Assembly (NCBI GenBank): GCA_964016885.1
Contig: OZ024740.1
Span: 437,224,001-437,288,000, forward strand
Length of the DNA stretch: 64,000 bases
Source of the DNA: Eledone cirrhosa
Lineage: Eukaryota
Direction of reading: 5' to 3'
The notes below the pieces were generated by a model. The model was not told where the DNA came from. It was given only the letters and a program-made list of their open reading frames with translations, and did not search any database. Of this stretch, positions 293 through 34,388 are shown piece by piece (within the stretch, counting starts at the first letter, position 1; each line of letters opens with the position of its first letter). Position numbers and translations under genes: made by a program.

Positions 293-696
293 AAAAGGAA
301 AAGAAAATGCTGACAAATTGTTCCCAGTGAAAAATAGTTTAATTAGGAATAAGTAAAAATTAGTAATAGTATTGGTTAGTATTCAGTTTTGGTTTTAAGT
401 TTTACCGGTTGCGCATTTCTAATGCTTTCAAAAATAATTTTGAGATAGAGCACCCGTGATGTTTGCTTTAATCAGATTAGAGCAAACATCACGGGTGCTC
501 TATCTCAAAATTATTTTTGAAAAGCATTAGAAATGTGCAACCGGTAAAACTTAAAACCAAAACTGAATACTAACCAACACTATTACTAATTTTGATTTAT
601 TCCTAATTAAACTATTTTTCACTGAGAACAATTTGTCAGCATTTTCTGTTCCTTTTACCAATATATCATAACTCGTGTGTTACACCTCTATTCTTA
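293..696. mobile_element. Palindromic non-coding element, family A copy 1 (~180-bp arms, centre 474), derived from a PLE 3' end
   Basis: 293-473 is the reverse complement of 475-656 around taatc-A-gatta. Flanked by (TA)n. Same element at 17682 and 33984; non-palindromic parent at 34699-34900 and 54713-55173. Confidence 0.85.
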
Positions 697-781
697 TATA
701 TATATATATATATATATATATATATATATATATATATATATATATATATATATATATATATATATATATATATATATATAC

Positions 782-3073
782 AAATTTGACTCCTTCGGCT
801 TTAAAACCTTTAGAAGCCCGCCACACAACACACTACTAAACTCCTTTGAAAATGACCTAATAAAACTAGTTAAGAATATTAAATACAAAAACCACCGTAA
901 TAAAAACAACACCTTCTTAAACAAACTTAGCACCTCTATTAATGATTTCAAAACTAGTAATAAAATTATTGTACATGCGGACGAAACTAATAACATATAC
1001 AGCCTAGATTATAATACTTATAGAAAGTTTATATATAATGAACTACATAAAAGCTACAAGAAAACCACAATGAAAAACTTAGAAGATATTAATATGGAAG
1101 GCTATAATATAGTGTTCAAACTAGGACTCCAGAGACATACACAACCATATACCCCAAACCCCGCTAGATTCTCTCTGAAGGACCATAAGGAGGACTTCAT
1201 TAGCAACCCCTCGATTAGACTTATCTGCCCTTCCAAGTCTGACATTGGCATTATCAGTAAGAAAATTTTAGATAAAATCATCCCACAGATTAAACACAAG
1301 ATATACCTTAAACAATGGGGAAATACAGGTGAAGTGATTGAATGGTTCAAAGATATCAAGGATAACAAGGATAAACAATTTATTCAATTTGATATCAATT
1401 CATACTACACCTCTATTTCCCCTATCCTATTAAATAAGGCACTTATCATGGCCATGGACAATAGTGACCTGACTAGACCCCAGATTGATGTCATACTTGC
1501 GGCCCGTAAAACAGTAATCACCTTTGAAGACCAATTATGGACCCGCAAGGATACGCAAAACAACTTCGACATAACCATGTGATCTAGTGACTCGGCGCAG
1601 GTCACTGATTTAGTCGGGCTATATTTACTTAACGAAATCCATAAGGACCTTCCATACCTCAACGGTAGTTTGTACCGCGATGATGCACTCCTACTTATAG
1701 ATTATAAAAGATTCAATATAGAAAGAACTAGAAAACTATTGCACAAGACATTCAAAAACTATAACCTTAGTATTACCATGGACAAAAACACTAAAAACGT
1801 TAACTTCCTGGACGCCACCCTCTACCTAGACTCAAAGGTATATGCACCTTTCCACAAACCTAATGAAAAACTCATTTACGTAGATACCAAGTCTAACCAC
1901 CCTAGATCTATATTAAACTCTATCTCTAAGGGAGTATCTAATAGAATCTCTAATCTATCCTATGACGTAAACATATTTAGCAAAAACTCGCAATATTATA
2001 ATCAGGCATTAGCTAGATCAGGCCATAATATAGAGATCGAGTTCCTACCTACAAAAACACATAGCTACAACATTATTTCGCACAACATGTCCATGAGGAA
2101 ATTTAGTAATAGGAATAGCAACCACACACACACTAATACGGAGGATGCCAACAAAAGTAACCCACACCACAGAAATTACCATAGTACCATAAAAGGAAGC
2201 AACTCACCCGACATAAAAAACAAAAATAGAAGAAGAAATAATACATTTTTCAACCCTCCTTTCAATCTAAACGTCTCTACCAACCTACCTAGGGCTTTCT
2301 TCTCACTACTGGATAAAAACTTCCCATCTGGCCACAAGTACCATAGCCTTTTAAACAAAAACACTATTAAAATCTCCTACTCTACTACGCCTAACATAGC
2401 ATACCACATAGCTAGTAGCAATAAAAGAAAAATTAATTCTTACTTCCAGCAAACTAAATCACAACAGACGATAAAGCTTCAAAATAACATTATAGCAACT
2501 AACCCTAATATCAATAGAAATAATAGTAATAGCACTAGTGTAAACAATAACGCTGGGAACGTCAACCCACATAACCATAACCCTATAGCTACCATCCAGA
2601 CTTCTACACAACATAATAACTGGCAGACTAACACCCAGAATAATTGTGACTGTAGATCAAATAGAACCTGCCCTTTAGATAAAAAATGCTTAATCAAGGA
2701 TATCATATACTCATGCACAGTCACAACTAGCAACTCTTCTGAAACCTATATAGGCTCTACTTCAAACTGCTTCAAAACCAGATACAATTCGCACCTCCAC
2801 TCTTTCAAAATACACACTCCAGCCAACTCCACTTCACTATCTAGCTACATACACTATCTAAAAACTAAAAATAAACCATATACACTTAAATGGGAAGTGA
2901 TAGGTAACGCGACATCGTACAAACCACCTAATGAATTTTGTAACCTCTGTCTACTAGAGACCCATACTATCATCTTCTCAAACCATAACCTCCTTAATAA
3001 AAAATCAGAAGTGTTCGCGTCTTGCCAACACCGCTTCCGACACTCCTTCCAAAACATTAAACCCAATATATAA
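782..3073 (+). pseudogene. PLE reverse transcriptase / GIY-YIG endonuclease ORF with one in-frame TGA at 1580-1582
   Basis: Motifs FIQFDINSYYTSI, ITM*SSDSAQV, YRDD, VNFLD, linker CDCRSNRTCPL (CxCx5C), YIGST..FKTRYNSH, CNLC, LLNKKSE..CQH. ORFs 677-1582 and 1670-3073 share a frame; paralogs have Gly at the stop. Confidence 0.88.
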
Positions 3074-4597
3074 CAATGTCAGACTTGAGCCCGTCACCAC
3101 ATCTAGCAACAATCATCAGGGGCACACCTTACACCTCATCTCCACACCCATTAATCCACTTTAACGCAAATAGTGACATCCTCCTAGTACCTTTTACCCT
3201 AGAAATATCCCCATGTACTTCTACTTTTGGTATATTGGCCTTCAATTACTTAGACTACATTACACCAATATATAATTCATGTAAACTTTAAGTACGGAAT
3301 TGGTTGTGCTAACATTGTCCTGTGTATGTAGTGCCATCATTGGATAAATGGAAGATTAAGTAATTAATTTATTAACATAAAAGAGCTATATAATCTATAT
3401 GCTGAGTGCAATGAATTATGTACAGGTGATGTATGAGTTATAAGTACTTGATGGTCAGATTAGTGTCTTTGTAGGTGAGAATTGATCTCTGGACTAGCCT
3501 AGTGATATTTAACTTTGCCATGCAATCAGACATGCAATGACCCAGAGCTTACCAGGAGTCATATATAGAAATGATTCTAATAAGACCCTGCCAGGTTCTG
3601 CGGGTGGACTACACTTACAAAGATCATTGATTTGGAGATCTGACTCTTCATGTGGAATATTCGGTGGTGGCACTCTATGATAGAAGGTAATCATCCTAAT
3701 ATGAACACCTTTAGTACTTCTTGATAGACTACACTGTAATTTATAGATAAGATACTTAAATTTAGAAATTGTTTATAACCTTATATGATAGGAATTCATT
3801 TGAGACACCATTAATGTACTTTAGGATAATAAATTTAGCTATAGAAATCAGCTAGTTACCTCCTCTTACGCATTAACTCCCCTTAATCACACACACACTT
3901 CCGGAATATAATATGATGTCAACTCTCACAACAAAAACAACCTGCTCTATAGAATCGAATTAAAGAACGACAAGCTGTGATGTTCTAGCATGGTTTACCA
4001 GGCACCCAATGTTGAATCATCGTGGATTGTGTGATGGACATGTAGTCTATAAATTGCGTTTCCTGGATTGTGGGAGTGGTGGTGTATACGAGGACAGTGG
4101 TGCTGTTTTGCTTCTCATTTGTAATATTTTTGATATTTTTGGTGTTTCTCTACACACGGGCTTCTTTATCGTACAGGTGTGTGTGAATAATGCTTTACCA
4201 GTACAGCCCCCATGATGCTCTTGATTGCCTGCTTTGACTGCTTGTTTTACATGTAACAATGTATCGCACTATAATCTTGTATAAATAGGACACGCGTGTA
4301 TGCCACACGTGTGACTGTTGCATACACTGACTACTCCAAACTTTCCTCTTGCTTTATCTTAGTAAACTGCCAATGTTTTATTTTAATTTTAATTTTAATT
4401 TTAATTTTAATTTTAATTTTAATTTTAATTTTAACTTTAATTTTGTCCTTTAATATGACTGTATTCTTTGTATGTAAATTACCATGCTATAATATTATAA
4501 TGGATGTCAACCCACTGTGGGCCAATATATATACATATGTTTCTATATGTCTCTTGTGTTGAAAAGGAGGTCAAGTATGTTAAAAATCACTGAATAA

Positions 4598-4646
4598 TTG
4601 CTCCGAAGACTACAAACCTCGGTTTGGAAGAAACAATTGTAAGCAA
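4598..4646 (+). ncRNA. Minimal hammerhead ribozyme variant (core CCGAAGA)
   Basis: ttgct-CCGAAGA-stem II(caaacc/ggtttg)-GAAA-caattg-TA-agcaa. Confidence 0.7.
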
Positions 4647-5338
4647 ATAAATGATTTAAACAGAACTTTGATTCATGTAATCTCTCTCTCTCTATATATA
4701 TATATATACAAATATATATATATATATATATATATATATACACAAATATATATATATATATATATATATATATATATATATATATATATATATATATATA
4801 TATATATATATACAAATATATATATACATACAAATATATATATATATATATATATATATGCAAATGTATATATATATACAAATATATATATATATGTATA
4901 TATATATATATACAAATATATATATATATATATATATATATATATATATATATATATATATATATATATACAAATATATATATATGTATACAAATATATA
5001 TATATGTATATATATATATATATATACAAATATATATATATATATATATACAAATATATATATATATACAAATATATATATATATACAAATATATATAGA
5101 TATATATACAAATATATATATATATATATGTTTGTATATATATATATATATATATTTGTATATATATTTGCATATATATATATATATATTTGTATATATA
5201 TATATATATATATTTGTATATATATATACAATATATATATATATATACAAATATATATATATATATATACACACAAATATATATATATATACATATACAT
5301 ATATATATATACAAATACAAATATATATATATATATTT

Positions 5339-33293: not shown

Positions 33294-33338
33294 AGTCACT
33301 GAAGAGGTCACAGAGTGTGTGACGAAAGAACTATGACT
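33294..33338 (+). ncRNA. HHR in the 3' pLTR of family I
   Basis: Identical to 29611-29655. Confidence 0.75.
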
Positions 33339-33483
33339 ATATATAAACAACTATCTGGTTGTGGAACCAACCAACCAACCAGAAATTTATAAATTTGTAA
33401 ATTTATAAATATATAATAAATTGAAGTGAAAGCAACTGGTGCGTGTGTTTCTTATTGGCAACATGACCCTCCCACATATATAT

Positions 33484-33843
33484 AGTTTATCATAAATCAA
33501 ATAAAATAAACAAACAAGCAAATAAATAAATAAATATATAGACAGACTGAATAATAATGGCGTAGACATATAATACAACAGGAGGAAACGATAACACCAC
33601 TGACGATGTTGCAGATGTGCAACGAAAGATTTATGATAACCTATATATATGTGTTTGTGTCTATATTGTATATGTATTATTTTTGACCGTCGGTCAGTCA
33701 ATGGCAACAGTGAGGACCGAATAAGCTAGATTACCGATATAAAAGACACAGAAGCGAGAAGCGAAAATCAACCAAACAGTGAGTGTGTTCTGTTATTAAT
33801 TCTGGCAATATTACACAAATATGACCCTCCCCAAGTATAACAA
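33484..33843 (+). mobile_element. Solo pLTR of PLE family I2 with HHR core at 33596-33638
   Basis: CTGACGA-t gttgca gatg tgcaac-GAAA-gatt-TA (weak stem I); ends at ATGACCCTCCCCAAGTATAACAAT. Confidence 0.7.
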
Positions 33844-33983
33844 TATATATATATATATATATATATACAAATATATATGTACACAAATATATATATATAC
33901 AAATATATATATATACAAATATATATATATATACAAATATATATGTATATACAAATATATATATATATAGTTTTTTATTGGTA

Positions 33984-34388
33984 TAAGGAAAAGAAAATGC
34001 TGACAAATTGTTCCCAGTGAAAAATATTTTAATTAGGAATAAGTAAAAATTAGTAATTATATTGGTTAGTATTCAGTTTTTGTTTTAAGGTTTATCGGTT
34101 GCGCATTTCTAATGCTTTTAAAAAATAATTTTGAGATAGAGCGCCCGTGATGTTTGCTTTAATCAGATTAGAGCAAACATCACGGGCGCTCTATCTCAAA
34201 ATTATTTTTGAAAAGCATTAGAAATGCGCAACCGGTAAAACTTAAGACCAAACCTGAATACTAACCAATACTATTACTGATTTTTACTTATTCCTAATTA
34301 AACTATTTTTCACTGGGAACAATTTGTCAGCATTTTCTTTTCCTTTTACCAATATATCATAACTCGTGTGTGACACCTCTATTCTTTT
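33984..34388. mobile_element. Palindromic element family A copy 3 (centre 34165)
   Basis: Same centre and tail as copies 1 and 2. Confidence 0.85.

What the first reader, a model, noticed from the sequence alone, without database searches (positions are those of the whole stretch)
293..34388. Fixed palindromic mini-element (family A) made from a Neptune PLE 3' end and amplified as a unit
Seen: three dispersed ~400-bp copies (293, 17682, 33984) share the same centre, the same arm mismatch (gcTTTaatc-a-gattAGAgc), about the same left boundary and the same right tail. The linear parent is the 3' end of the PLE at 34699-38685 and the fragment at 54713-55173. Each arm holds an HHR-variant motif, so both strands encode it. 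Inference: a MITE-looking hairpin of retroelement origin, either copied from one master or regenerated by fold-back at a preferred short hairpin. Transcription would give ~180 bp of dsRNA.
Basis: partly seen in the sequence, partly recalled or inferred. Interest (0 to 1): 0.72.

Follow-up and report, generated by a model that had tools for sequence, protein, structure and literature searches.

The report
Penelope hairpin stubs mark RNA start
The three mirror-image repeats are real, but they are short head-to-head insertions of a Penelope-like jumping gene that are likely rebuilt at each insertion, with the mirror centre likely marking where the element's RNA begins; the three copies here are likely local DNA duplicates of one such insertion, not a new self-copying mini-element.

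Summary
Observation confirmed: three ~410-bp palindromes (centres 474, 17864, 34165) with one shared arm mismatch and a one-sided tail. The mismatch is not a family trait. About 180 loci share this centre, only 5 carry the mismatch, and 3 of those 5 are here. Genome-wide, each copy's two arms resemble each other more than other copies' arms (39 private mirror-image variants in 62 copies, 0.7 expected), so the palindrome is re-made per insertion. The layout is the published Penelope-like (PLE) inverted pLTR plus tail. A sister subfamily (467 matches) and a 70-75% identical family (1166) fold at the homologous base, about 30 nt downstream of a TATA-like box, even where the parent has no hairpin. 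A native 6-bp palindrome 60 nt away is rarely used (34 in that zone). The centre is therefore likely the transcription start: cDNAs primed from both cut strands would run off the RNA 5' end and join. This step is inferred; no RNA data were available. The window trio are likely local duplicates within an ~80-kb microsatellite domain. The scan's notes made similar readings on other DNA.

The parts
294..694 (.). Palindrome copy 1; centre 474; tail about 662-694; left-arm HHR core has a 1-nt deletion
17677..18086 (.). Palindrome copy 2; centre 17864; arms pair over 17677-18051; tail 18052-18086
33976..34387 (.). Palindrome copy 3; centre 34165; tail about 34355-34387; shares 4 left-arm-only variants with copy 2
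17904..17939 (+). Minimal hammerhead-like motif in the right arm of copy 2 (UUGAAAA core, stem II GCAUU/AAUGC, GCAA instead of GAAA, palindromic CCGG, UA); mirror copy at 17789-17824 on the minus strand. Activity untested
   Evidence: read from sequence; U3-A8 variant described in PMC4209133
54712..55173 (+). Linear, tailless end of the same subfamily; homologous centre base at 54986, CATAAAA at -31 (54955-54961)
34698..38685 (-). 5'-truncated PLE of the sister subfamily (RT + GIY-YIG ORF 36000-38354, CX4CxxC linker, CCHH); homologous centre base at 34896
6716..7421 (-). Linear end of related family C (70-75% over the conserved block); U3-A8 HHR with intact GAAA; TATAAAA at -30 from the homologous A. 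Further pieces at 9017-9501, 24572-24816, 5339-5539
18568..19506 (+). Unrelated TA-flanked composite (family B); its only full-length match among 40 scored candidates is the second local copy at 41143-42079 (98%). Control for local duplication
1..64000 (+). Part of an ~80-kb domain (about -10 kb to +70 kb) whose TA tracts carry a polar TATACAAATATA variant

Best explanation
These are the shortest head-to-head insertions of a Neptune/Nematis-type Penelope-like retrotransposon, likely rebuilt at each insertion, with the mirror centre likely at the first base of the element's RNA. Shown: the arm is pLTR plus optional tail, inserted in TA microsatellite, with two fixed outer ends about 35 nt apart and a fixed centre; both arms of a copy carry the same private variants; three related families fold at the homologous base. 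From published work on another PLE: the protein nicks and extends both target strands and starts reverse transcription at two internal sites that bound the tail. Inferred: each nicked strand primes a cDNA on RNA from one source locus, each cDNA runs about 190-220 nt to the RNA 5' end (TATA-like box at about -30), and the two ends are joined head-to-head by blunt joining or 1-4 nt microhomology. This would give an A or a T at the centre regardless of tail side. The product lacks the upstream TATA-like box and is likely a dead end. The three window copies likely descend from one insertion by DNA-level copying between TA tracts of a local microsatellite domain.
For: Re-made per insertion: 39 private symmetric variants in 29 of 62 copies vs 0.66 expected; arms differ by 3.4 within a copy vs 7.6 between copies; left/right label needs 54 changes on the tree. 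Mirror-image deletions occur (L150, L156, L135, L207). 6 of 15 sister-subfamily copies with identical arms carry private symmetric variants. Long-spacer pairs carry them too: 14 in 20 pairs (7 in one copy) vs 9 in 20 palindromes. Fixed base: 467 matches in the sister subfamily and 1166 in family C. Counted by eye in the listed rows: 30 of 50 family C junctions have one arm ending exactly at the homologous A and none reaches beyond -2; 0 of 49 sister junctions hold the full native upstream sequence (2 ambiguous); four complex junctions stop or restart at that A. Control zones 60-90 nt downstream give 34 and 11. TATA-like box: [CT]ATAAAA at -31/-32 in 32 of 43 distinct family A upstream sequences, TATAAAA at -30 in both window copies of family C, TATTTAAA at -29 in two near-identical copies of an unrelated family D. 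Centre A 18 vs T 18 among 36 one-tailed copies; 18 vs 9 in family C. Both-strand priming and two start sites: PMC11167929. Local origin: 3 of 5 mismatch copies and 2 of 3 matches to a second variant lie in the window; 0.002 such palindromes expected per 34 kb; family B is also locally duplicated.
Against: No RNA data tie the centre to a transcription start. D. virilis Penelope is reported to have an internal, TATA-less promoter (PMC2377424). The TATA test was made after the fact in AT-rich DNA; 11 of 43 family A sequences lack the box; family B and one further palindrome (38745-38839, centre a few nt past an HHR cut site) fit less well. In the finding's own subfamily the 6 nt upstream of the centre equal the reverse complement of the 6 nt downstream, so the boundary is inferred from relatives. 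No copy with arms from two different source haplotypes was seen among 26 inspected, so two templates are not shown. Palindrome arms differ less than arms of long pairs (21 vs 41, p = 0.10), which leaves room for later arm-to-arm conversion and centre flipping. Copy 1 shares only the one mismatch with copies 2 and 3 and is not closer to them overall than to other copies; copy 2's nearest copy by total distance is elsewhere.
Confidence: 0.6

Rival explanations
1. One cDNA runs off the RNA 5' end, folds back and copies itself; later recombination between the arms flips the centre and evens out the arms.
For: Explains private symmetric variants and deletions with one molecule, and the lack of hybrid-arm copies. 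In four complex junctions the repeated piece lies in the tailed arm's cDNA sense (read by eye). Lower arm divergence in palindromes. Tailed arm is the longer one in 14 of 25 long pairs, the tailless in 6, 5 unclear (by eye).
Against: A T centre with the tail on the right (18 of 36) needs frequent later flipping. Zero-loop and 1-nt-loop centres (37 of 50 rows) are hard to prime within one strand (inference). Both strands are extended in vitro.
Confidence: 0.25
2. The centre is set by a native micro-hairpin (CTAATC-A-GATTAG) where reverse transcription stalls and snaps back, or by self-priming on an antisense RNA as proposed for Adineta.
For: The finding's subfamily has this 6-bp hairpin, and the sister subfamily's commonest centre is its own GATC. 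PMC3846280 proposes antisense self-priming.
Against: Family C has no palindrome at the site yet gives 1166; its perfect ACCGGT gives 7 exact centres among 34. Junctions do not include native upstream sequence. Micro-palindromes seem to shape the joint, not its position.
Confidence: 0.08
3. A fixed MITE-like palindromic master is amplified as a unit across the genome.
For: Same centre and ends in about 180 loci; the three window copies share an asymmetric variant.
Against: No left-arm or right-arm clades; at least five haplotypes, each on both arms; same-side variant sharing outside the window is no higher than the opposite-side control (53 vs 47 pairs with one). Ends are not terminal inverted repeats.
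Confidence: 0.04
4. The three window copies are independent insertions or local retro-copies, not DNA-level duplicates.
For: No shared unique flanks; the region is rich in TA targets; the copies are only 95-96% identical.
Against: Rare asymmetric variants cluster here, all three share one orientation, and unrelated cassettes are also duplicated locally in direct orientation. Local retro-copying is not excluded.
Confidence: 0.15

Closest known systems
Inverted-pLTR insertions of endonuclease-bearing PLEs (Adineta Pen2a/Pen3a, PMC3846280 passages; general scheme in PMC8557442 passages)
   Same: Head-to-head inverted 5'-truncated copy, 30-40 nt tail on one end only, palindrome at the junction, TA-microsatellite targets, TATA/Inr-like motifs in the pLTR.
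   Different: Here the junction sits at one base in hundreds to over a thousand copies per family and is read as the RNA 5' end on a sense template; the Adineta paper proposed self-priming on an antisense template.
PAc (Poseidon, Anolis) in vitro mechanism (PMC11167929, parts 1-3 of 4 read)
   Same: Two fixed outer ends bounding the tail at the pLTR-ORF junction; both strands nicked and extended; uncleaved RNA as main template (HHR cut zone rarely a junction here).
   Different: Different clade; start sites here lie just upstream of the first ATG, not 111-118 nt into the ORF; that paper leaves the later joining steps unvalidated.
Minimal PLE hammerheads, U3-A8 variant (PMC4209133, parts 1-2 of 4 read)
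   Same: U3-A8 core, palindromic CCGG in place of helix III; dual motifs on opposite strands 100-700 bp apart were noted there.
   Different: Family A has C at the second position of the GAAA box in 240 of 248 matches and only a 3-bp helix I; activity unknown.
MITEs (definition recalled)
   Same: Short, non-coding, hairpin-forming, high copy number.
   Different: No terminal inverted repeats at the true ends, RT/GIY-YIG partner rather than a transposase, arms re-made per insertion.
L1 twin priming (recalled, not read)
   Same: Two target strands prime two cDNAs that are then joined.
   Different: In L1 the second primer anneals further upstream on the RNA, giving a non-overlapping inversion; here both arms copy the same segment.

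Membership tests
EN+ PLE inverted insertion | Arm derives from the pLTR of an RT + C-terminal GIY-YIG element | tested here: met
   RVT_1 and GIY-YIG in the sister element; same-subfamily tandem unit L183 and sister unit L182 (4805 bp)
EN+ PLE inverted insertion | Adjacent inverted 5'-truncated copy, head-to-head | tested here: met
EN+ PLE inverted insertion | 30-40 nt tail, usually on one end, continuous with the element's 5' body | tested here: met
   36 of 49 one-tailed, 3 two-tailed, 10 without; tail runs into ORF1 region in L182 and L183
EN+ PLE inverted insertion | Target-site duplication | not tested
   Flanks are TA microsatellite; PMC8557442 notes TSDs are often not discernible there
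Neptune clade | CX2-5CxxC linker before GIY-YIG, and CCHH motif | tested here: met
   CDRPNCGIC at aa 653; CSGC and two His. Shared with Nematis
Neptune clade | RT phylogeny with Neptune rather than Nematis references | not testable with these tools
   1185 homologues, none of the 120 listed carries a clade name
Minimal hammerhead ribozyme | Core box 1 (CUGANGA or U3-A8 variant), stem II, palindromic helix III, UH | tested here: met
   UUGAAAA, GCAUU/AAUGC, CCGG, UA; aligns with family C motif found by descriptor
Minimal hammerhead ribozyme | Conserved GAAA box | tested here: not met
   GCAA in 240 of 248 matches, GAAA in 3; no hammerhead among the 150 listed of 208 Rfam matches
Minimal hammerhead ribozyme | Self-cleavage | not testable with these tools
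   needs an assay
MITE | Terminal inverted repeats at the element's true ends | tested here: not met
   tail makes the ends asymmetric
MITE | Amplified as a unit from few masters | tested here: not met
   holds only for the local trio

The most novel reading that the evidence does not exclude
PLEs insert by double target-primed reverse transcription: both cut strands copy the same short stretch of RNA from one locus, run off at the transcription start and are joined head-to-head. Mini-palindrome centres would then be a genomic map of RNA 5' ends for every PLE family, and would explain inverted pLTRs without antisense self-priming. TA-flanked stubs would additionally hop locally at the DNA level inside microsatellite domains.
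Probability: 0.45. Interest if true: 0.65.

Novelty: new member of a known kind. Interest (0 to 1): 0.42.

Why it matters
The structure is known, and a MITE finder could mislabel it. Its value is mechanistic. How PLEs make inverted insertions is named as open in PMC8557442 and PMC11167929. The junction counts here give a sharp prediction (centre = RNA 5' end, 30 nt after a TATA-like box, either arm complete) that one 5'-RACE and one in vitro assay can test. The genome also holds well over a thousand such ~130-220 bp hairpins from these families, a possible source of double-stranded RNA if read through; expression was not shown.

Tried and rejected
The repeat finder was swamped by TA tracts. 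Rfam gave only sub-threshold miRNA-shaped hairpin matches among the rows listed. The antisense motif CTGACAA...GAAA was considered as the HHR and rejected: C3-A8 mismatch, no family conservation. Segmental duplication with shared unique flanks: none in 264 kb. Sequencing runs: no RNA holder listed; contigs of three runs cover the element in pieces but none spans it. RNA-editing signature: A>G 9 vs T>C 2 among private symmetric variants (p = 0.07), absent in the sister subfamily (2 vs 4) and in asymmetric variants (17 vs 18); inconclusive. Age trend of private symmetric variants: rho = -0.22, p = 0.085; not positive, not decisive. Hybrid-arm copies: none among 26 inspected. A 3' splice site (CAG|AT) was considered for the fixed base; no copy with a different exon upstream was seen among 30 anchored loci, but it was not excluded. 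HHR cut site as the centre: not for families A or C; about 9 of the 34 family C junctions lie near it, not tested against background. PMC5785218 (dimeric PLE hammerheads) is not held, so whether GCAA variants are in print is unchecked. No supplements were read; those of PMC4209133 and PMC11167929 may bear on the HHR variant and on junctions.
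Full report
1. Observation. The three palindromes exist as described: 294-694, 17677-18086, 33976-34387, 94.6-96.4% identical, centres 474, 17864 and 34165, one shared mismatch 6 nt left of centre, and a ~35-nt tail on the right. Copy 2 folds at -287.9 kcal/mol, z = -38. The fragment at 54712-55173 is 95-97% identical to the arms. The PLE at 34698-38685 is only 84-86% identical and is a sister subfamily. The window lies on contig C1 of a 3.0-Gb animal genome; the scan's notes call it octopus-like, which I did not test.

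2. The family. A DNA search gave 1718 candidates; the 40 scored were all near-full-length palindromes on many contigs. An exact 31-nt centre pattern gave 355 strand matches, about 180 loci. The linear motif gave 4843 matches over both subfamilies and the arm start of the finding's subfamily 3040. Many linear copies lie in head-to-head pairs with spacers from tens of bases to 5.7 kb. In tandem units (L182, 4805 bp; L183) the tail runs straight on into the first ORF region. This is the published PLE layout: inverted 5'-truncated pLTR, optional one-sided tail, microsatellite targets (PMC3846280 and PMC8557442, passages). The partner ORF has RVT_1, GIY-YIG, a CX4CxxC linker and CCHH, so it is Neptune- or Nematis-type; the two could not be told apart.

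3. One master or re-made? I analysed 85 palindromes: 49 taken by position on C1 and part of C2, 33 top hits or other matches (biased towards copy 2), and the 3 window copies. Two lacked a readable centre, 20 had one truncated arm and 1 was cut short, leaving 62. There are 39 variants present on both arms of a single copy and nowhere else, in 29 of 62 copies, against 0.66 expected. Arms differ by 3.4 within a copy and 7.6 between copies, with no left-left or right-right excess. The left/right label needs 54 changes on the tree (shuffled mean 41). At least five haplotypes appear on both arms. Mirror-image deletions occur. In the young sister subfamily, 6 of 15 copies with identical arms (35 analysed) still carry private symmetric variants, and long-spacer pairs carry them at a similar rate. 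Both arms therefore come from one source at insertion. Against a pure insertion-time account: palindrome arms differ less than long-pair arms (21 vs 41 in 20 each, p = 0.10), so some later conversion is possible. Copy 2 has a symmetric private change near its outer end that copy 3 lacks, which also suggests conversion.

4. What fixes the centre? The sister subfamily has 467 matches to a wide junction pattern (about 537 loci with a looser one); 37 of the 50 listed are centred on GATC. Family C, 70-75% identical over the conserved block, has 1166, although its parent reads CCAACC-A-GATGTG, which is not a palindrome. Counted by eye in the listed rows: 30 of 50 family C junctions have one arm ending exactly at that A, and none extends beyond -2 although the pattern allowed up to 24 nt. 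None of 49 sister junctions holds the full native upstream sequence (2 ambiguous), and four complex ones stop or restart at the A. Control zones 60-90 nt downstream, which contain a perfect ACCGGT and the predicted HHR cut site, give 34 in family C (7 exactly on ACCGGT) and 11 in family A; the patterns are similar in length but not identical, so ratios are rough. The position behaves like a template end. A TATA-like box lies at -31/-32 in 32 of 43 distinct family A upstream sequences, at -30 in both window copies of family C, and at -29 in two near-identical copies of unrelated family D. A TATA box at about -30 from the start is recalled knowledge. I infer that the centre is the transcription start. 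Caveats: the test was post hoc in AT-rich DNA, family B and the palindrome at 38745-38839 fit less well, D. virilis Penelope has an internal TATA-less promoter (PMC2377424 passages), and no RNA holder was listed.

5. How the arms are joined. With the tail on the right, the centre is A in 18 and T in 18 of 36 copies; in family C the tailed arm is complete in 18 and the tailless arm in 9 (27 informative of 45 loci, which I picked by junction class). Either arm can be the longer in long pairs (14, 6, 5 unclear of 25, by eye). PAc nicks and extends both strands and starts at two internal sites bounding the tail (PMC11167929, parts 1-3 of 4). The simplest fit is two cDNAs, one from each nick, running off the RNA 5' end and joined head-to-head. 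Single-cDNA fold-back with later flipping is not excluded: no hybrid-arm copy was found among 26 inspected.

6. Hammerhead. The sense strand carries UUGAAAA, stem II, GCAA, CCGG, UA, starting about 40 nt after the centre; family C has the same with GAAA. The U3-A8 core and opposite-strand pairs of motifs are described (PMC4209133, parts 1-2 of 4; PMC6765202 passages). GCAA is in 240 of 248 matches, so the motif fails the GAAA test. In a full palindromic transcript it would be locked in the long hairpin (inference).

7. Why three here? The mismatch has 5 exact matches genome-wide, 3 in the window; the other two sit in different haplotypes, one on the opposite arm. Copies 2 and 3 share four left-arm-only variants and group at 97/93 support; a 27-nt pattern over two of these variants has 3 matches, 2 here. 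The expected number of such palindromes in 34 kb is 0.002. The window lies in an ~80-kb domain whose TA tracts carry a polar variant: 203 in the window against 2 in 234 kb of other loci. An unrelated 939-bp composite and a 1.7-kb block are also duplicated locally in direct orientation. No unique flanks are shared. I infer cassette-level DNA copying between TA tracts. Copy 1's link rests on one variant plus position and orientation, and the trio is not closer overall than the family average, so the duplications are about as old as the family burst.

8. Novelty. The architecture is in print. Searches of the held library found no paper tying PLE palindrome centres to the transcription start or to two-strand priming; subscription papers and supplements were not seen. 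Also read as passages without bearing: bioRxiv 10.64898/2026.07.22.740005, PMC13282606, PMC12910113. The scan's own unreviewed notes reach similar readings on other DNA; my reading was written before that look-up, and they are not independent support. Verdict: a new member of a known kind, with a testable mechanistic reading. Interest 0.42.

Noticed in passing
window 38285-38354 (minus strand); L053, L182, L183, L184, L188: This PLE family has two overlapping ORFs, whereas canonical PLEs are described with one: an upstream ORF of about 436 aa overlaps the RT-endonuclease ORF by about 70 nt in the -1 frame in 6 of 7 long copies translated (the seventh has a broken first ORF). The overlap holds T TTT TTA in frame in 6 of 6 distinct copies, and 5 of these lack the nearby ATG. 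Candidate -1 ribosomal frameshift (heptamer type recalled); no downstream structure predicted; one paper search found nothing.
   Followed up: partly
window about -10000 to +70000: An ~80-kb domain with a strand-polar TATACAAATATA microsatellite variant, packed with PLE stubs and local direct duplications.
   Followed up: partly
window 28350-33474: A different PLE with 1255-bp inverted arms (99.8%), a 1056-aa ORF and canonical CUGAAGA hammerheads at 28525, 29616 and 33299.
   Followed up: no
window 38745-38839: Palindrome of another family whose centre lies a few nt downstream of a predicted hammerhead cut site in its linear relatives (L027, L203, L131, L017); may record a cleaved RNA end.
   Followed up: partly
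window 25529-25718, 39115-39300: Family D palindromes with junctions clustering at TTTAGTC, 29 nt after TATTTAAA in linear copies L081, L091 and L092.
   Followed up: partly
window 18568-19506, 41143-42079: Family B: palindrome plus a ~550-bp tandem unit with no ORF in the list, possibly a non-autonomous passenger of PLEs.
   Followed up: partly
L085-L089 (window -89400 to -49000) and L081-L083 (-25700 to -9600): A 40-kb array of a 34-bp satellite, and about 4.5 near-identical tandem copies of a 3531-bp unit, upstream of the window.
   Followed up: no
window 9530-14853: LTR retrotransposon with 440-bp direct repeats (93%) and broken gag/pol-like frames.
   Followed up: no
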